Origin: Malacoraja senta
Taxonomy: Eukaryota
Direction of reading: 5' to 3'
Length of the DNA: 64,000 nt
NCBI GenBank assembly: GCA_038087875.1
Contig: CM075988.1
Location: 23,996,001 to 24,060,000, forward strand
Shown: positions 7,421-58,392 of the stretch, in pieces
Numbering within the stretch: position 1 is the stretch's first letter
How the letters are laid out: each line of letters begins with the position of its first letter
Notes under the pieces: generated by a model
What the model was told of the DNA's origin: nothing
What the model saw: the letters and a program-made list of their open reading frames with translations, nothing else
Database searches by the model: none
Made by a program: the position numbers and the translations under genes

Positions 7421-9288
7421 AGGGGCTGTCCCACTTGGGCGACATAATTTAGGTTGCCCAAGTTTAGGCGGGTTTAGAAGAGTTTAGGAGAGTTTGAAAA
7501 AATGACATGTTGAAGACCAGCTTCGACTATGTAGAAGACCAGCTACAACTAACTTCAGGAAAATTGGACACTGAATAGTGGAGAGAGATGACGACCTCCC
7601 TTCGACTATGATGAAGACTGTCTACGACTACCTTCGACTACCCTCGATTACCTACGACTAACATTGGTACGACTACGACTTTGGAAAGTGGTGAAATCAT
7701 TGGACAAAGTCAGCATGGATTTATGAAAGGTAAATCATGTCTGACGAATCTTATAGAATTTTTCGAGGATGTAACTAGTAGAGTGGATAGGGGAGAACCA
7801 GTGGATGTGTTGTATCTGGACTTTCAGAAGGCTTTCGACAAGGTACTACATAAGAGATTAGTATGCAAACTTAAATCACACGGTATTGGGGGTTCAGTAT
7901 TGATGTGGATAGAGAACTGGCTGGCAAACAGGAAGCAAAGAGTAGGAGTAAACGGGTCCTTTTTACAATGGCAGGCAGTGACTAGTGGGGTACCGCAAGG
8001 CTCAGTGCTGGGACCCCAGCTATTTACAATTTATATTAATGATCTGGACGAGGGAATTGAAAGCAACATCTCCAAGTTTGCGGATGACACTAAGCTGGGG
8101 GGCAGTGTTAGCTGTGAGGAGGATGCTAGGAGACTGCAAGGTGACTTGGATAGGCTGGGTGAGTGGGCAAATGTTTGGCAGATGCAGTATAATGTGGATA
8201 AATGTGAGGTTATCCACTTTGGTGGCAAAAACGGGAAGGCAGACTATTATCTGAATGGTGGCCGATTAGGAAATGGGGAGATGCAGCGAGACCTGGGTGT
8301 CATGGTACACCAGTCATTGAAAGTAGGCATGCAGGTGCAGCAGGCAGTGAAGAAAGCGAATGGTATGTTGGCCTTCATAGCAAGAGGATTTGAGTATAGG
8401 AGCAGGGAGGTTCTACTGCAGTTGTACAGGGTCTTGGTGAGACCACACCTGGAGTATTGCGTACAGTTTTGGTCTCCAAATGTGAGGAAGGACATTATAG
8501 CCATAGAGGGAGTGCAGAGAAGGTTCACCAGACTGATTCCTGGGATGTCAGGACTTTCATATGAAGAAAGACTGGATAGACTTGGCTTATACTCGCTAGA
8601 ATTTAGGAGATTGAGAGGGGATCTTATAGAAACGTACAAAATTCTTATGGGGTTGGACAGGCTAGATGCAGGAAGATTGTTCCCGATGTTGGGGAAGTCC
8701 AGGACAAGGGGTCACAGCTTAAGGATAAGGGGGAAATCCTTTAAGACCGAGATGAGGAAAAACTTTTTCACACAGAGAGTGGTGAATCTCTGGAACTCTC
8801 TGCCACAGAGGGTAGTTGAGGCCAGTTCATTGGCTATATTTAAGAGGGAGTTAGATGTGGCCCTTGTGGCTAAAGGGATCAGGGGGTATGGAGAGAAGGC
8901 AGGTAGGTACGGGATACTGAGTTGGATGATCAGCCATGATCATATTGAATGGCGGTGCAGGCTCGAAGGGCCGAATGGCCTACTCCTGCACCTATTTTCT
9001 ATGTATCCATGTATCTATGTAACATGCCGACCCACTACGACTAAACCTACAAGTAAAAAAATATCGGTTTTTTTCCATGGCGACCTTTTTTTACTCGCGG
9101 GCATTTTTTAACAGATTGAAAAATACGCCGCGACCTAGCTGAGGCCTCGAGTACGCGGAGACCACTCTCGAGCATGAAGGAGAGTTACGAAGACCTCCTA
9201 CGACCTCGTGTCGACCGTGCTGCGAGTATGAGTCAGGGGCAAACTCGCCAGAACTCGCGGATTAGGTCGCCCATGTGGGACAGCCCCT
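7421..9288. mobile_element. Harbinger-like MITE subfamily C, split by a CR1 LINE insertion
   Basis: TIRs aggggctgtcccacttgggcgac / gtcgcccatgtgggacagcccct with flanks TAA / TTA. Internal tacgac-rich repeats continue on both sides of the LINE. Confidence 0.8.
7681..9020 (+). mobile_element. 5'-truncated CR1/HER1 LINE with an uninterrupted reverse-transcriptase domain
   Basis: ORF contains QHGFMKGKSCLTNL, YLDFQKAFDKV, GVPQGSVLGP, FADDTKL, RPHLEYCVQFWSP and NLWNSLP, then a 3' tail of tctatgt-like repeats. No endonuclease domain or ORF1 is present. Confidence 0.95.
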
Positions 9289-9412
9289 TTAATCTGGTTG
9301 GGGTCCAACCTCACAGGGTGACAGCTCTGCTCCACAGGAGAGGCTGATACCAACCCCGCTCACTATTCTGCCATGTGACCACTCGCTTGTGCTTGGCTGG
9401 GGCTGCACACAT

Positions 9413-11278
9413 GCACTCACACTCACTCGCTCTCACACTCACTCGCTCTCACACTCACTCCCTGTCACTCATTCACTCACTCACTCACTCACTCACTCAC
9501 TCTCACTCTCTGTCACACACTCACTCACTCTCTCACACTCACTCACTCTCACACTCACTCTCACACACTCACTCACACTCACTCACTCACACTCACTCTC
9601 ACTCTCTGTCACACACTCTCTCACACTCACCCACTCACTCTCTCACACTCACTCACTCACACTCACTCACTCTCACACTCACTCTCTCACACTCACTCTG
9701 TCACACACTCACTCACACTCACTCACTCACTCACTCACTCTCACACTCACTCACTCACTCACACTCACTCACTCACTCTCACACTCACTCACTCACTCTC
9801 ACACTCACTCACTCTCACACTCACTCACACTCACTCACTCACTCACACTCACTCACTCACTCACTCACTCACTCACTCTCACACTCACTCACTCTCACAC
9901 TCACTCACACTCACTCACTCACTCTCACACTCACTCACTCTCACACTCACTCACACTCACTCACTCACTCACACTCACTCACTCTCACACTCACTCACTC
10001 TCACACTCACTCACACTCACTCACTCTCACACTCACTCACTCACTCACACTCACTCACTCTCACACTCACACACTCACTCACTCACTCACTCACACTCAC
10101 TCACACACTCACTCACTCTCACACACTCTCACACTCACTCACTCTCACACTCACTCACACTCACTCACACTCACTCACTCACTCTCACACTCACTCACTC
10201 TCACACTCACTCACACTCACTCACTCTCACACTCACACACTCACACACTCACTCACTCTCACACTCACTCACACTCACTCACTCTCACACTCACACACTC
10301 ACTCTCACACTCACTCTCACACTCACTCACTCACTCACTCACTCACTCACTCACACTCACTCACTCTCACACTCACTCACTCTCACACTCACTCACTCAC
10401 TCACTCACTCACTCACACTCACTCACACACTCACTCACTCTCACACTCACTCACTCACTCACTCACTCATTCTCACACTCACTCACTCTCACACTCACTC
10501 ACTCACTCTCACACTCACTCACTCACTCACTCTCACACTCACTCACTCTCACACTCACTCACTCACTCACTCTCACACTCACTCACTCACTCACTCTCAC
10601 ACTCACTCACTCTCACACTCACTCACTCTCACACTCACTCACTCACACTCACTCACTCACACTCACTCACTCACTCACACACTCACTCACTCACTCACTC
10701 ACTCTCACACTCACTCACTCACTCTCACACTCACTCACTCACTCTCACACTCACTCACTCACTCACACTCACTCACTCACTCACACACTCACTCACTCAC
10801 TCTCACACTCACTCACTCACTCTCACACTCACTCACTCACACTCACTCACTCACTCACACACTCACTCACTCACTCTCACACTCACTCACTCACTCTCAC
10901 ACTCACTCACTCTCACACTCACTCACACTCACTCACTCTCACACTCACTCTCTCACACCCACTCTCACACTCACTCACTCACACTCACTCACTCACTCTC
11001 ACACTCACTCACTCACACTCACTCACTCTCACACTCACTCACTCTCACACTCACTCACTCACACTCACTCATGCACACTCTCACACTCACTCACACTCAC
11101 TCACTCTCACTCTGTCACTCTCACTCACTCACTCTCTCACTCATTCATGCATGCACGCACGCACACCACCCCCACACACACTCACTCACACTCTACTCAC
11201 TCTCCCACACACTCTCACACACTCACACACTCACACACACTCTACTCACTCTCCCACACACTCTCACACACTCACACA
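9413..11278. repeat. About 1.9-kb complex (CACT)/(CA)/(CT) simple-repeat array
   Basis: Read directly. It explains the spurious 739-aa and 631-aa His/Ser/Leu/Thr ORFs. Confidence 0.97.
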
Positions 11279-11699
11279 TTGTAAGAGCCGTATATTTGCT
11301 CACTCACCAGTGAATGCAACCAGGGAGATGGTTTGCAGAGTAAATGTTCAGTTCTTCATTGCTAAATGCACAGACAGATTTGCTTGGATGGTGACACAGG
11401 TGAACATTTGGGGCGGGCTGCGTTTTGCCAGCGAGCTGCTGTACATTGGGATTCCGTTGAATAACAACTCACCAGGGACTCCCCAGCCTCACCTTGCCCT
11501 CGCTCTCTCACACCCTCTGGCTCTAATCCTTTCTGTGTCTCCGCCACAATTTCTGGCCCCTGTGTATCTAGAGTTGGTCTCACTCCTCAGCTAGATGCCA
11601 AGCTCCCAGGCTCTGGAATCTCCTCTCTAAAGCTCTTCACCTCCCTCTCCCCCTTCAAAATCACCCTTAACATCTACCTGTTTGATCACTCCCACGTCC

Positions 11700-42884: not shown

Positions 42885-43170
42885 GGGACAGTTTCTTCCC
42901 AGCTGCTATCAGGCAATGGAATCATCCTACCACAACCAGAGAGCAGCGCTGAACTACTATCTACCTCATTGGAGACCCTCGGACTATCTTTGATCAGGCT
43001 TTGCTGGCTTTACCTTGCACTAAACATTATTCCCTTATCATGTATCTGTACACTGTAAATGACTCAATTGTAATCGTGTATTATCTTTCCATTGACTGAT
43101 TGGCACGCAACAAAAGCTTTTCACTGTACCTCGGTACACGTGACGTTAAACTTAAACTAAACTAAACTAA
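42885..43170 (+). mobile_element. Rex1/Babar-like LINE 3' end
   Basis: DSFFPAAIRQ-like coding end with a (ctaaa)n tail. Same family as 1285-1710. Confidence 0.6.
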
Positions 43171-43871
43171 ATGTCAGTTGGGAGGGTTATGCTCAACACT
43201 TGCTATTCTCATTCAAACACAATTTCCAAATTAACCAGCGTTTCTGATACCACATCACAGTATCTTTCCTCCTTTACTCTCTATTATACTGGAGTACAAC
43301 TGGTTATTTGAATTATCAAGCAAAAGGTGTTTTATCTGTAAAATAAACTTGTATAGTGCAAAGCAGCATTGCTCTATTGTGAGCTCCGCTCCGCATTAGC
43401 GGGCAGCTTCTCTCCAGAGGCCGATGAAGACATCTCTGCATTAAAACCTTTGCAGCATACCACAGGGAGACAGACGTTGGTCCTATTCCACGATGTTTAA
43501 AGATGTAGCAACCTTACACACGTCACAATGACTCTCTTCAACAAGAGAGAGTCTAACCCAACCATCCTTGATGGACACACAACGCTGGAGTAGCTCGGCA
43601 GGAGTGGCAGCATCTTTGGAGAAAAGAAATGGGTGATGTTTTGGGTCGAGACCCACCCATCTCCAGAGAGTCCCGCCGAGTTACTCCAGCATGTTGTGTC
43701 TATCTTCGGTGTAAACCAGCATCTGCAATGCCTTCCTACACCAACCATCCTTGATATATCATTACCAGCATTGAATATCCTACCCACACCGTTATTGAGT
43801 TTGGGCATTCAACTGCTCGAGCCACAACTGACATCATTGATTGAGCTGGGACAGGTACATGGATAGGAAAG

Positions 43872-44342
43872 TGTAGATTGATGATGCATGTGATCCAATC
43901 ACACTTAGCCAGCATCACTAACTCCACCCCATTATAACACTTATACTAACGCCCATTCCCAGCACCGTAAGTTGAAGCAGCCAGGATGAACTGACAACAC
44001 CTTGTTTTGTAATGCTGCCAAGTTACAGTGCAGATTAAAGATGTGTGTAAATCTTATACAGTCTCAAGTGATTTACATGGTGTCAGAAGTGGGATTAATG
44101 CACAGGCGGACTTCATCCTTTCCCTTCTTAACTGTGGCAATCATGGTTGAGACCCAGTTGGTGGGGTCGCGACTGCTTCAATTACGCCTTTGGAGACCAT
44201 GTCCTTCAGCATAGAATGAACCCTGTCAGTCATGGCAAATGAGTATCGGTGCGGGGAATGGGCATTAGTATAAGTGTTATAATGGGGTGGAGTTAGTGAT
44301 GCTGGCTAAGTGTGATTGATTCACATGCATCATCAATCTACA
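43872..44342. mobile_element. Rearranged Ty3/Gypsy LTR-retrotransposon insertion: LTR (43872-44077), tRNA-Leu PBS (44078-44095), inverted RT fragment (~44091-44254), inverted LTR 5' end (44247-44342)
   Basis: TGT...ACA ends and 5-bp TSD gaaag (43867-43871, 44343-44347). 96-bp inverted arms. PBS TGGTGTCAGAAGTGGGAT. Minus strand encodes PHRYSFAMTDRVHSMLKDMVSKGVIEAV/DPTNWVSTMIATVKKGKDEVRLCINP. Confidence 0.85.
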
Positions 44343-46267
44343 GAAAGGGTTGGTGGGATATAGGGCAAATGGGACCAGCTTAGATGGGGCATCTTGGTTG
44401 GCATGGGGGAGTTGGGCGGAGGGTCCCGTTTCCCAGCTGTGGGACTGTGACTCTATGCTTTACAGACAAAAAACCCCCAGAACATTCTTGAGTGAATGAA
44501 AGCTTTGATTAAATTGTTGGATTTAAGGAAAGAGGGAGAGGTCAGTTTAGAGATAGGGGTCACGGGGAGAACGCACAAACTCCGTATAGACAGCACCCGT
44601 GGTCGGGGATCGGAGCCGGTTCTCTGGCGCTGCAAGCGCCGTGCAATGCAGCAACTCTACCGCTGCACCACCCTGGTTCGACAGGTTGGCGGTCAGGCAG
44701 GCAATTCCAGAGCTGCAGGCTTACCCGCCCGTGGATGCAGGGGTGAAGATGGGACTGGAAACCAGAAATGGAAAGTGCACATCAACCTCAAATGGTGCGA
44801 GGATGGAGAAGGTTGTCTAGAACGGAAGGGTGAGATTGTGGGGGCGTTTGAGTAGAAGAAGGACAGCTTCAAAATGAGGATGCTGGTGAGCCATGTGTCC
44901 ACGTGCGTGGGTAGGGACTTGTGGAATTCATTTTTGGATACAGTTCAGTACAAGTACATTAGCACTTAGATCCATCTTAGATAAGCCTCAGATACAGTAC
45001 AAGTGGAAGGTGTCAAAGGTTACGGGGAGAAGGCAGGAGAATGGGGTTGAGCGGGAAATAGATAGATCAGCCATGATTGAATGGAAGAGTAGACTCGATG
45101 GGCCGAATGGCCCTAAGTCTGCTCCTAGAACTTATGAATAGACGAGACACAAGAGGGGGAAAGATGAAGGAAAAAATCGCTTGAAAAAGCTCAGACATGC
45201 CCTGAGATTTACACTATGTTTTGCCTGACAGTATAAATATCTGCAGGTTTGTGTTTGAAACTCTCACCATGGACACTTGACCAGCTCTGGTTTGCTTTTG
45301 TGCCTCAGTCGGTATAACTTTGTATTCTAATAAGGCTGCGTGAGCCGGAATCAAGCAGTTAAACGTTGCCATGCGGAAGGCAGAGCCTGCCCTCTGAGAG
45401 TGGGTTCGGGTGAAGCCGTCCTATTTATAGAGGAGCCATGTTGTGCACAGTGCTGTCGCATCAGCGATTATCAGAGCTTGAGTGCTCAGGGCCAAGGATC
45501 ACTGAGTCCCTGCCGATATATTACTCACACTTGGGCTCTGATGTCCTTCACATTTATCCTTGAAGAACTTATAAGAGCGACCCACGGTGTGTATATGTCC
45601 AACAGGCACACTTCACTTCAACTATGGGACCATCTTCGCAAACGCACGCGTCCTGTTAATTCTTCCAGTTTTAAGACAAGGCTTGTAGATTCTGTGCCCC
45701 ATCAGACTCCTACTCAAACAACACATGTTAGGATTAAACTCTGACTTAATCCTCAGGCTGTTCACAGTAGATCTTCCCCTCTTTCTGTGAAAGCGTCGAC
45801 GTTTTTGCTTGCGGTTGCTATCTCCAACCAACAATGTTGGCTGCGACACTGGTATTTTGGTCGAGGCAGAATTAAAAATAGCAACTGCAAATATCACAGC
45901 TCTGATTCAGTCCCATAACCTTTCTCACCCAGGTAACAAAACATTCCAACTTTTTTAAGCTCTTGACAGTTTGCTAATTTATTTTTGTGCCCTTCTTTAA
46001 GCAGGGAGCTGTTATGGAACTGAAGCACTGTGTTTGAAACAACAGCTTCCATCTACATTGCAACTTTTAACAAGTAAAACGTCCCAAGGCACTTCTCATC
46101 ATGCAACGTCATCAAATGAAAATGGACGCATGCTGCATTTGCTTACTGCCAGCTGAAACAGTTAACTCCTTCTCACTTAACTTTTACAAAAATTCTTTAT
46201 AAATTTGGGAACCTCTGTAAAATATTTCATCAACCTCCTCTGCACTGAATAATAGGATAGGCACATT

Positions 46268-48590: not shown

Positions 48591-48957
48591 GCTGTGTGGA
48601 TCTGTACTGGTTCTTTTCCACCCTTTCTTGCTGTGTGGTGATTAAAGATTAAACATGTCTGAGGGATTGAATGGCCACTGTAGATCAGACAGTATTGCTG
48701 ATTTGATCCGTGTCTGGTTTTGCTGCTGATGACCTGATCCATAATCCATATCAGGTTTCCCAACACCACCAGCACCTAGTGGCATGCAGGCAGCCATGTT
48801 GGTTAGGCAGTTCAACTTACGATTTCGAGCCTACAGCACTCATTTCGATGGTCTCTGTATATATTCTAATTAAAGTACTTGTTATGATATACAATTACTT
48901 TGTATCAATAGTACTTTGCACATGGTGTCAGAAGTGGGATTCGAACCCACGCCTCCA
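48588..48957 (+). mobile_element. Probable LTR remnant followed by a 35-nt antisense copy of the mature tRNA-Leu 3' end (48923-48957)
   Basis: ATTAAA about 50 nt upstream of ...GCACA|TGGTGTCAGAAGTGGGATTCGAACCCACGCCTCCA, whose reverse complement ends in CCA. The left boundary is uncertain. Confidence 0.55.
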
Positions 48958-49379
48958 GTTGGGAGTTTCTTAGCAGGTGATGACTCAACCAGCACAGGTT
49001 TCGTCGGGGATTTGTCGACAGGCTTTACAGGGGTCTTCAGCCACCTACTGTGGCGACACTTCACTCAGGCTGAGCTATCTTGCCACTTGGGAGTGGAGTA
49101 AAATTGTAATTTGGAGTGGTGAATCCAGTAAATTCAGTATTGAATGTATGTATAGCCTCCGAGAATGTCGGATGAAGATTTTTTGCACGGTTCATGTATT
49201 GTATATATTTATTACTTGAATAAAGTCTATTTTGAAATTTTAAAAAACTTGTGAGTGGTGTGTTTGTAGTTCTCCTGTGCCTGTCTGTCTAAGAGAACAA
49301 TGCTTCTCATCAGCACCCATTCCCCAATTGCAAGGAGCTCATGGGGACAAATTATGTCTTGTCTTTCAATGTCTGCTTT

Positions 49380-55982: not shown

Positions 55983-56962
55983 AAGAGTTGCCTACAGTTT
56001 CCCTGGAGTCCCATCAGGCCCAGTGCTTCTGCAGATACACACAGTGTATCGGGCCACAGACGTACTGTTGTAAACTGGTGAAAGACGGAATCACAGAACA
56101 GTGGACTTAATGTGCGGGCGGGCGGGCGGGCAAGAAGCTAAGTGTGGATAGCTAAGGTGGGTATCAATGTAGAGTAACATCAACAAAGTCAATGGTTGCA
56201 GTAAAAAAACAGAAAATGCTCGATATACCCAGCTGGTCAGCCAGCCATTGTGGACAAAGAAACAGATTTAAACTTAGATTTAAACTTTCAGGTGAATGAT
56301 CTGAATTATCCGGTGAAGATAGACAGAGAGCGCTGGAGTAATTTAGCGGGTCAGGCAGCATCGCTGGAGAAAAGGAACAGGTGATGTTTCGGGTCAAGAC
56401 CCTTCTTTTCAGATTGAGGAAGAGTCTCGACACGAAACGTCACCCATTGCTTCTCTCCAGAGATGCTGCCTGTCACACTGAGTTACTCCAGCTTTGTGTC
56501 CATCTTCAAATGACATCACGCGCTCCAGACGGCTGTGCCTACACATGTAATTGTGCCCGACCTACGCGGGACCGTCGTGGCTCAACGCGACCACGACACG
56601 TAAGTGGGACAGGCCCTTAAGTGGCCTAACCACCGGGTAGCGCCTAAACGGCATACACATGTAATTTGCTGCTCTCTTATGGGCACCAGTCGGGCTTTAA
56701 CTTTCAAGAGTCAAGAGTGTTTGGAGGAAAGAACAGCAGATGCTGGTTTAAACCGAAGGTAGACACAAAGTACTAGAGTAACTCCACGGGACAGGCAGCA
56801 TCTCTGGAGGGAAGGAATGGGTGACGTTTCAGGTTGAGACCCTTCTTCAGAGATGTTACTGTCATATGTCCCAGATAGAACATTGCAGCAACACAACACA
56901 ATATCTGAACATAGCACAGTGTAAACAATGTATTAAAGGAGAAAAAAGTTCAGTGTTTGTAT

Positions 56963-57435
56963 CATACGCACACATATACATGCATACGCACACATATACA
57001 TGCATACACACACATATACATGCATATGCACACATATACATGCATATGCACACATGTACATGCATACGCACACATATACATGCATACGCACACATATACA
57101 TACATATGCACACATATACATGCATACGCACACATATACATACATATGCACACATATACATGCATATGCACACATATACATGCATACGCACACATATACA
57201 TGCATACGCACACATATACATGCATACGCACACATATACATGCATACGCACACATATACATGCATACGCACACATATACATGCATACGCACACATATACA
57301 TGCATACGCACACATATACATGCATACGCACACATATACATGCATACGCACACATATACATGCATACGCACACATATACATACATACGCACACATATACA
57401 TGCATACGCACACATATACATGCATATGCACACAC
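56963..57435. repeat. 20-bp minisatellite (CATACGCACACATATACATG)n, about 23 units
   Basis: Read directly. Strict purine/pyrimidine alternation. Confidence 0.95.
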
Positions 57436-58392
57436 ACTGTACACATACATCAGAACGAACAACAAATAGTGCAAAAAGACAAAATAATTTTTTGAAGGTA
57501 GACAAAAATGCTGAAGAAACTCAGCGGGTGAGGCAGCATCTATGGAGCGAAGGAATAGGTGATGTTTGGGGTCTCGACCTGAAACGTCACCTATTCCTTC
57601 GCTCCATAGATGCTGCCTCACCCGCTGAGTTTCTCCAGCATTTTAGTCTCCCTTCGATTTTTCCAGCATCTGCAGTTCTTTCTTAAATAATTATTTGGAA
57701 GTGCCATTCGCTGCGAATACTAGGCCGAATCAACATCCCTTGTGTTGTCTGTATATTCCGGCCATTGTACAAGTAATCTAACACTGCCACTTTGGTGTTG
57801 TGCTTTGAATGAACGTAATGTAATGCTCTTGTTTCAGGAGATCAGCGTCAAATGACAGAAACCTTGGGTTTTGAAATAAACTTAAATGGTTTTGCAGATT
57901 TCCAGCTAATGGAACCATCAACACCTTTATTGTGTTTTCAGTGCGCTATAAGATTGCTATCAAACATGAATCACCTGCGTAAAATTGTGGTTTTCAGATC
58001 GACTTAATCATAGCATTACACAAGAGAAAACCTCTGTCTTTGACCGAGCTTTTGCTCTCGTATCTCCTTACGTGCTCTGTGCTGTGTCTGCCTGATTGAT
58101 GAACCTTCGAAGGACTTTAGGACGCTTTACTCCATTAGGGCTAATCACTGTATCACAAGGTCTACTGTGATCATTGAATCATATGGTTTAAATCATCTAT
58201 AGAAGGAATGAAGTGCATTCTGGAGTGAAAATATTGAAATGGAGGAGGGCCAATTTTCAGTGGCTTGAAAGCAAATCTAGCCAAGATGAACTGGAGTTGG
58301 GGGTTGGCAGCTACAAGTATAATTGATTGGTGTGTCAACTGGGAGGAACTGCAGATGCTGGTTTAAACCGAAGACAAACACAAAACGCTGGG

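What the first reader, a model, noticed from the sequence alone, without database searches (positions are those of the whole stretch)
43867..44347. LTR retrotransposon turned into a TIR-like mini-element: a fossil of aberrant plus-strand transfer integrated with two U3 ends
Seen: a 471-bp insert in a CR1 tail with TSD gaaag and TGT...ACA ends. In order it holds a 206-bp LTR (TGTAGAT...ATTAAA...ATTTACA), the 18-19 nt tRNA-Leu PBS, about 160 bp of Gypsy RT coding sequence in antisense (one frameshift), and the first 96 bp of the same LTR inverted (4 mismatches by my count). Both junctions overlap in short shared sequence: GGGATT (PBS / codons N-P) and GCACCG (LTR / codons P-H-R). Established: plus-strand strong-stop DNA is LTR plus 18 nt of primer tRNA, and integrase needs only terminal att ends and makes 4-6 bp TSDs. 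Inference: strong-stop DNA template-switched twice at microhomologies, giving a DNA with U3 att sites at both ends that integrase inserted. If multicopy, this would be a non-autonomous inverted-LTR element class bridging LTR elements and MITE/Ginger-like structures.
Basis: partly seen in the sequence, partly recalled or inferred. Interest (0 to 1): 0.78.

Follow-up and report, generated by a model that had tools for sequence, protein, structure and literature searches.

The report
Gypsy copying accident with mirrored ends
A 471-base insert holds one end-repeat of a Gypsy-type jumping gene with its primer site, a backwards scrap of its reverse-transcriptase gene and a backwards copy of the repeat's front end; it is likely a dead one-off product of faulty DNA copying that the element's integrase probably still inserted, and its copy number in the genome is untested.

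Summary
43872-44342 is a 471-bp insert with GAAAG on both sides, 96-bp inverted arms (4 mismatches), a 206-bp LTR-like block, a tRNA-Leu primer site (PBS) and an antisense Gypsy RT scrap with one frameshift. Five of five paralogous LINE tails hold the pentamer slot once, so the duplication is real. Both junction overlaps fall on codons conserved in the nearest RT subclade (N-P, H-R; chance about 0.007 and 0.003), and the nearest RT relatives carry the same PBS type. Best reading (0.7): a plus-strand strong-stop DNA mis-paired at its PBS end with plus-sense sequence, was completed against a second U3-started strand, and was inserted by integrase. It lacks a polypurine tract and a direct second LTR, so it cannot re-enter the LTR cycle; a mobile family (0.08) is unsupported but untested, since no genome or same-species reads were available. 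New: a second, unrelated LTR-like block 4.3 kb away carries 35 nt of copied tRNA-Leu and a likely 5-bp duplication, so such accidents may be common here. A tidy fossil, not a new class.

The parts
43867..43871 (.). left copy of 5-bp target-site duplication (GAAAG)
   Evidence: slot present once in 5 of 5 paralogous LINE tails
43872..44077 (+). LTR-like block, 206 bp, TGTAGAT...ATTTACA, TATAA at position 62, ATTAAA 44 nt before the end; 5' boundary inferred
   Evidence: size within 153-219 bp given for Steamer-type LTRs (PMC8905726)
43872..43967 (+). left arm of the 96-bp inverted repeat (LTR nt 1-96, presumed U3)
44078..44096 (+). primer-binding site, 18-19 nt complementary to the 3' end of tRNA-Leu(CAA)
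44091..44096 (.). junction 1 (strand-inverting): PBS end overlaps RT codons N-P
   Evidence: N-P in 20 of 119 relatives, the nearest subclade; chance about 0.007
44091..44254 (-). Gypsy RT N-terminal fragment, 54 codon positions, one frameshift near 44162-44171
   Evidence: (P0001, 83% identity, E 4e-21)
44247..44256 (.). junction 2 (same polarity): RT codons P-H-R overlap LTR nt 87-96; crossover probably just before the mismatch at 44253
   Evidence: H-R in 19 of 20 proteins of the C-I-N subclade; chance about 0.003
44247..44342 (-). right arm: inverted copy of LTR nt 1-96
44343..44347 (.). right copy of the target-site duplication (GAAAG)
43838..44400 (+). host LINE (CR1-like, name recalled) ORF2 end and tail, interrupted by the insert; boundaries approximate
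48679..49039 (+). second, separate insert (likely): 244-bp LTR-like block + 35 nt of tRNA-Leu complement + 82 bp unidentified, ending in CA, GCCAC on both sides

Best explanation
The insert is an LTR-like block with its tRNA-Leu primer site, an antisense scrap of Gypsy RT and an inverted copy of the block's first 96 bases inside a 5-bp duplication, and it is likely a dead-end reverse-transcription product that the family's integrase probably inserted once. Inferred steps: (1) a plus-strand strong-stop DNA (LTR + 18 nt of primer copy) was released; (2) its 3' end paired through 5-6 bases with plus-sense RT sequence in place of the minus-strand PBS, which inverts polarity; (3) a same-polarity jump at about 9-10 bases of imperfect homology linked the RT stretch to U3 nt ~88-96; (4) a second strand that also began at U3 nt 1 and the first strand were filled in against each other, giving a duplex with two U3 ends; (5) integrase cut and joined both CA ends, host repair made the 5-bp duplication. 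Which of the two strands picked up the RT stretch cannot be told from the sequence. The product has no polypurine tract and no second direct repeat, so it would not retrotranspose again.
For: Shown: anatomy and duplication; RT identity; junction 1 within 1 nt of the PBS end; overlaps on conserved codons; the 4 loci with >=50% full-length RT identity all carry this PBS type with 1-2 mismatches, so LTR/PBS and RT fit one clade; no purine run of 8 or more on the + strand of the insert; single copy in 64 kb. Established: repeated PPT priming displaces plus strong-stop strands and dead-end ones accumulate in Ty3 particles (PMC5371799 passages); integrase makes 4-6 bp duplications, while host-joined ends usually give large duplications or deletions (PMC5041404 passages). 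A second LTR-like block in the window carries 35 nt of tRNA complement where 6 of 6 related loci checked leave the tRNA sequence after 18 nt, which points to strong-stop products reaching this genome.
Against: No parent DNA, genome or same-species reads: overlaps and single-copy status are inferred. Pairing through 5-6 bases is weak and the route needs two rare events. LTR nt 93-139 has no cover in 4 of 4 related runs, so the left block is not shown to be one LTR. Only 15 of 342 joints were listed, so the junctions in relatives were neither seen nor excluded. An earlier unchecked note from another fish genome speaks of several families of such copies (e1-9930421).
Confidence: 0.7

Rival explanations
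1. Two cDNA molecules each gave a U3 end to one integration complex; the inward tails were resected and joined by host microhomology-mediated repair, which also copied in the RT scrap.
For: Explains two U3 ends, the exact 5-bp duplication and microhomologies. Aberrant HIV proviruses show viral ends joined to further viral sequence in either orientation with short homology (PMC5041404 passages). The two arms differ, as two templates might. Two-donor concerted integration in vitro is recalled, from no call.
Against: A host-made break has no reason to fall within 1 nt of the PBS end unless one donor was itself a strong-stop duplex, which merges with the best explanation.
Confidence: 0.11
2. A multicopy non-autonomous element with 96-bp terminal inverted repeats: either an LTR-derived unit moved by an integrase-like transposase, or a Ginger2/Tdd-type MITE that captured an LTR end, PBS and RT scrap.
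For: Ends fit the TGTNR pattern and the arm length lies in the 40-270 bp range of Ginger TIRs; Tdd elements make 5-bp duplications (PMC2836005 passages). Arm and RT bins both lie about 100-700 times above single-copy depth in related species and the bin just inside the left arm has none (the tool warns depth is no copy number). e1-9930421 mentions families of such copies (unchecked).
Against: One copy in the window; 0 look-alikes among earlier windows; junction pattern absent from metagenome contigs and arm start absent from viral contigs (these collections hardly hold this host, so weak). Target is not CCGG/CCGT or RTATAY. The H-R codon overlap at the arm's inner end fits a template jump, not a TIR boundary. 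No transposase.
Confidence: 0.08
3. A normal full-length element inserted first; a later replication-based rearrangement (three template switches, the last at the LTR's own short terminal inverted repeat) left this remnant between the old duplication.
For: The LTR start and end are themselves inverted at 6 of 7 bases, so a last switch there could keep the duplication; microhomology is typical of such events (general knowledge).
Against: Needs three switches, the first by chance at the PBS end; the right end matches the LTR start, not its end, at the one distinguishing base.
Confidence: 0.07
4. Assembly or fold-back artefact.
For: No run of this species was found (best share 0.07 of words); the window has scaffold gaps (200 N).
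Against: Arms differ at 4 places including a CpG transition; a 5-bp duplication in a collinear LINE tail and codon-level overlaps are not what fold-back reads give.
Confidence: 0.03

Closest known systems
Gypsy C-clade (Mag/SURL/Steamer-like, 'K02A2.6-like') LTR retrotransposons
   Same: Leu-tRNA PBS directly after a short TGT...ACA LTR (PMC8905726 passages); RT homologous to single-ORF PR-RT-RH-IN proteins, many named K02A2.6-like, nearest named one from Leucoraja erinacea.
   Different: No gag, no intact pol, no polypurine tract, second repeat partial and inverted; clade placement not tested by a tree with reference elements.
Dead-end plus-strand strong-stop DNA of Ty1/Ty3 and mis-transferred retroviral cDNA
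   Same: LTR plus primer copy as the left module; Ty3 makes and displaces several plus strong-stop strands (PMC5371799 passages). HIV proviruses with inversions and asymmetric LTRs are ascribed to RT misalignment (PMC9278108 passages: two classes of 1 provirus each with inversions). Older retroviral work on PBS-end mis-transfer is recalled only; one search found no paper.
   Different: Here the product is germ-line fixed, has two U3 ends and an exact 5-bp duplication; none of the passages read describes that form.
Ginger1 and Ginger2/Tdd DNA transposons (Bao et al. 2010, PMC2836005)
   Same: TGTNR ends, inverted repeats of similar length; the paper suggests Ginger1 TIRs arose from two LTRs in opposite orientation.
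   Different: No integrase gene between the arms, 5-bp non-specific target instead of 4-bp CCGG/CCGT or RTATAY, no evidence of excision or copies; the route here is a copying error, not two neighbouring insertions.
TRIM/LARD non-autonomous LTR elements and MITEs (definitions recalled)
   Same: Short, non-coding, flanked by a duplication; PBS as in TRIMs, inverted ends as in MITEs.
   Different: No direct LTR pair or polypurine tract (TRIM); no shown copy number or partner transposase (MITE).

Membership tests
Derived from a Gypsy (Ty3/Metaviridae-type) element | RT homologous to pol with PR-RT-RH-IN order | tested here: met
   (P0003: protease, RVT_1, RNase H, integrase in that order)
Derived from a Gypsy (Ty3/Metaviridae-type) element | LTR end CA followed by a tRNA PBS typical of the RT's clade | tested here: met
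   (4 of 4 loci with >=50% full-length RT identity; 8 of 29 RT loci in all, many contigs truncated)
Derived from a Gypsy (Ty3/Metaviridae-type) element | LTR and RT scrap from the same family at DNA level | not testable with these tools
   no genome; related runs give only binned depth
Gypsy C-clade (Mag/SURL/Steamer-like) | phylogenetic placement with reference C-clade RT/RNase H | not tested
   no reference elements in hand; PBS, LTR size and K02A2.6-like names point there
Non-autonomous LTR retrotransposon (TRIM/LARD) | two LTRs in direct orientation | tested here: not met
Non-autonomous LTR retrotransposon (TRIM/LARD) | polypurine tract before the 3' LTR | tested here: not met
   no purine run >=8 on +; the one on - lies inside RT codons
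MITE | terminal inverted repeats and target duplication, short length | tested here: met
MITE | many near-identical copies at different sites | not testable with these tools
   1 copy in the 64-kb window; no genome
MITE | TIRs shared with an autonomous DNA transposon | not testable with these tools
   no genome or repeat library
Ginger1 | TGTNR ends, TIR 40-270 bp | tested here: met
Ginger1 | 4-bp CCGG or CCGT/ACGG duplication | tested here: not met
   GAAAG, 5 bp
Ginger2/Tdd | 4-bp duplication in RTATAY (metazoan) or 5 bp (TDD-4/5) | tested here: inconclusive
   length fits Tdd only; site is not RTATAY
Ginger1 or Ginger2/Tdd | integrase-like transposase gene, or non-autonomous copies sharing its ends | tested here: not met
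   only an RT scrap inside; partner elsewhere not testable

The most novel reading that the evidence does not exclude
Gypsy C-clade elements in this lineage regularly make U3-U3 duplexes from mis-paired strong-stop strands, and some, this one included, have spread as inverted-LTR units cut and pasted by an integrase-like enzyme: a living intermediate on the LTR-to-TIR path proposed for Ginger1.
Probability: 0.08. Interest if true: 0.8.

Novelty: new variant of a known kind. Interest (0 to 1): 0.42.

Why it matters
It is a clean germ-line record that an LTR integrase can apparently accept two U3 ends and that plus-strand transfer can misfire at 5-6 bases of homology. It shows a one-step way to turn an LTR into terminal inverted repeats, which bears on the open origin of Ginger1 TIRs; a product that happened to span the integrase gene would look like a proto-Ginger. 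With the neighbouring 35-nt tRNA read-through insert, it suggests that genome-wide counts of such fossils could map where reverse transcriptase stops on the primer tRNA in vivo. As a single dead copy it has no shown function.

Tried and rejected
Own genome: none held. Sequencing runs: 7 listed, all with 0.05-0.07 of the words, two related organisms; 4 of 7 laid; flanks about 92-93% alike; high-copy repeats in the stretch crowded the tables (15 of 342 joints shown, none inside the insert), so the junction test failed. The uncovered bin 43964-44010 is noted but contigs do not prove absence. Pfam on each frame of the RT scrap alone: no true hit. Rfam over 43000-45500: 0; over 48850-49050 only sub-threshold matches, one on the T-arm. 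ARAGORN: 0 tRNA genes. Junction pattern in metagenome contigs: 0; arm start in viral contigs: 0; P0001 in viral contigs: 0; PBS in viral contigs: 2 loci, not informative. P0001 cluster: 1 unnamed member. The 82-bp piece of the second insert: an open P/K/S/T-rich antisense frame, but 0 hits and none against 121 pol proteins (one search used the wrong frame), so a pol origin is not shown. The two LTR-like blocks do not align beyond their ends and PBS: different families. A 37-nt 81% match of LTR nt 118-154 to four near-identical loci (E 0.07) was taken as chance. Autointegration rejected: its junctions would lie at LTR ends, here they lie at the PBS end and LTR nt ~90. Deletion between two opposed neighbours rejected: the LINE tail is collinear with one duplication. 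DIRS-type inverted repeats rejected (no duplication, tyrosine recombinase; recalled). Paper searches gave 0 papers; others gave none whose listing describes an integrated U3-U3 product; the library lacks most subscription papers, and no supplements were read.

Full report
1. Observation. The window sequence and a script show a 471-bp insert at 43872-44342 with GAAAG on both sides and TGT...ACA ends. The repeat finder gives 96-nt inverted arms, 96% complementary, 279 nt apart; mismatches lie at 43894, 43895, 43950 and 43961. As single-stranded DNA the insert folds at -144.7 kcal/mol, z -19.9, 0 of 100 shuffles as stable. BLASTN finds no second copy in the 64 kb, only a 22-nt match at 48920-41. 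The flanks translate separately as the last codons of a LINE ORF2; in 5 of 5 paralogous tails in the window the pentamer slot occurs once, and the right flank matches them at 9-12 of 15 bases after one pentamer against 5-6 of 15 if it were doubled. The duplication is therefore real. The label CR1 is recalled from motifs; Pfam only confirms RVT_1 in a longer LINE frame of the window. The host is probably a cartilaginous fish (inference: nearest named protein is from Leucoraja erinacea).

2. Parts. 43872-44077 looks like a short LTR: TATAA at position 62, ATTAAA 44 nt before the end, start and end inverted at 6 of 7 bases. The 18-mer at 44078-95 occurs twice in the window against 0.06 expected; its first 12 letters are the Leu-tRNA PBS of Steamer-type Gypsy elements, whose LTRs run 153-219 bp (PMC8905726, passages), and 19 letters match the tRNA-Leu(CAA) probe in PMC7997516 (one passage). 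The antisense segment, read with X at its break, finds P0001 (83% identity, E 4e-21, 1 hit among 4 candidates). 118 of 121 proteins hit 44091-44254 (E<=1) in two frames, one frameshift near 44162-44171, and nothing else in the window better than E 0.09. Relatives have protease, RT, RNase H, integrase in Gypsy order. Of 29 metagenome loci with a related RT, 8 carry this PBS within 3 mismatches, among them all 4 with at least 50% full-length identity (two of them look like one family; many contigs are cut short). LTR/PBS and RT thus fit one clade; same family at DNA level is not shown.

3. Junctions. At junction 1 the last PBS bases read in frame as N-P. After the R-L-C-I motif 91 of 119 proteins have D-P and 20 have N-P, the latter being the nearest subclade. 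The chance that five PBS bases fit these codons is about 0.007. At junction 2, LTR nt 92-96 read as H-R, found in 19 of 20 proteins of that subclade and 20 of 106 overall; chance about 0.003. The arm mismatch at 43961/44253 gives the right arm a Pro codon as in P0001, so it probably comes from RT, which puts the crossover near LTR nt 87-89 in about 9-10 bases of imperfect homology (inference). The other differences are one CpG transition and one tandem change: two events in about 87 bp, a young but not brand-new insert, or two different templates.

4. Related genomes. No genome is held and no run of this species was found. Four of seven runs of two related organisms were laid. Unique flanks are about 92-93% alike. 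Two single-copy-depth contigs of organism A end their match at 43866 and run on 49 letters that do not lie on the insert, which fits an empty site. One RT contig runs on 31 letters past 44242 without entering the arm. RT bins stand about 210-310 and arm bins about 120-720 times above single-copy depth (rough, the tool warns against copy numbers). Against a simple picture: 43964-44010 has no cover in 4 of 4 runs, just inside the left arm, so the 206-bp block is not confirmed as one LTR. Only 15 of 342 joints were printed, none inside the insert; the decisive junction test was not obtained.

5. A second case. At 48923-57 the same PBS runs on to 35 letters of the tRNA-Leu(CAA) probe, through the whole T arm; 6 of 6 related loci checked leave the tRNA sequence after 18 letters. 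Upstream is a 244-bp block starting TGTAGAT with ATTAAA 54 nt before its ACA end; GCCAC precedes it and recurs at 49040-44 after a CA, 82 bp past the tRNA copy. TGTAGAT alone is at chance level in the window (10 seen, 8.2 expected), but CA plus this pentamer within 100 bases is expected about 0.005 times (chosen after the fact). The block is unrelated to the first LTR and the 82 bp are unidentified. It reads best as an over-extended strong-stop DNA inserted with a makeshift CA end; no empty site was checked.

6. Mechanism. Shown: order, polarity, duplication, overlaps on conserved codons, junction at the PBS end. Established: plus-strand synthesis starts at the polypurine tract and stops after copying the primer's 3' end; transfer relies on PBS homology (PMC6894440, passages); in Ty3 and Ty1 the tract primes repeatedly and dead-end plus strong-stop strands accumulate (PMC5371799, passages); integrase makes 4-6 bp duplications, whereas host-joined ends usually leave large duplications or deletions (PMC5041404, passages). 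Inferred: a released strong-stop strand paired with plus-sense RT sequence, a same-polarity jump tied the RT stretch to U3, and two strands that both began at U3 nt 1 were filled in against each other. Confidence 0.7. Rivals: two-donor integration with host joining (0.11), a multicopy inverted-repeat element or Ginger2/Tdd-type MITE with a captured piece (0.08), later replication-based rearrangement of a normal copy using the LTR's own terminal inverted bases (0.07), artefact (0.03).

7. Known kinds. It derives from a Gypsy element, probably C-clade (tree not run), but is not a TRIM/LARD (no direct LTR pair, no polypurine tract). It looks like a MITE or Ginger element in its ends: TGTNR and 40-270 bp TIRs fit, the 4-bp CCGG/CCGT or RTATAY targets and the transposase do not (PMC2836005, passages). 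That paper proposes two opposed LTRs as the source of Ginger1 TIRs and calls the chain of events unclear. HIV proviruses with inversions and asymmetric LTRs are known (PMC9278108, passages). PMC12789967 (passages) added nothing specific. Ten searches gave no listing that describes an integrated two-U3 product; four gave 0 papers; subscription papers are mostly missing and older retroviral work on PBS-end mis-transfer is recalled only. Earlier unchecked notes of this scan describe like cases in fungi and another fish; none matches this sequence and none comes from this genome.

8. Verdict. Real, well-formed fossil of faulty plus-strand transfer; new variant of a known kind; interest 0.42. The bold reading, a spreading inverted-LTR family on the way to a Ginger-like transposon, is not excluded (0.08; interest 0.8) and hangs on one BLASTN of the source genome.

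Noticed in passing
window 48674-49044: Second likely insert: 244-bp LTR-like block, 35 nt of tRNA-Leu complement (past the usual 18), 82 bp unidentified ending in CA, GCCAC on both sides. Looks like an over-extended strong-stop DNA of another family.
   Followed up: partly
window 44046-44077: Perfect 8-bp inverted repeat with a 16-nt loop at the U5 end of the LTR, between the ATTAAA and the PBS (centroid fold).
   Followed up: no
window 43861-43871: The LINE bases just before the insert are 10 of 11 purines and mimic a polypurine tract; paralogues show they are ordinary LINE sequence.
   Followed up: yes
window 43964-44010: No contig of four related-species runs covers this part of the LTR-like block, although both neighbouring parts are deeply covered.
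   Followed up: no
window 43570-43741: Very high-copy repeat with 34-nt inverted arms, many copies in the window and extreme depth in related runs; family not identified.
   Followed up: no
window 7615-9111: 498-codon open LINE RT frame (RVT_1), a fairly intact 3' part of a CR1-like element.
   Followed up: partly
window 9300-11300 and 56900-57500: Long simple tandem repeats that give spurious long ORFs.
   Followed up: no
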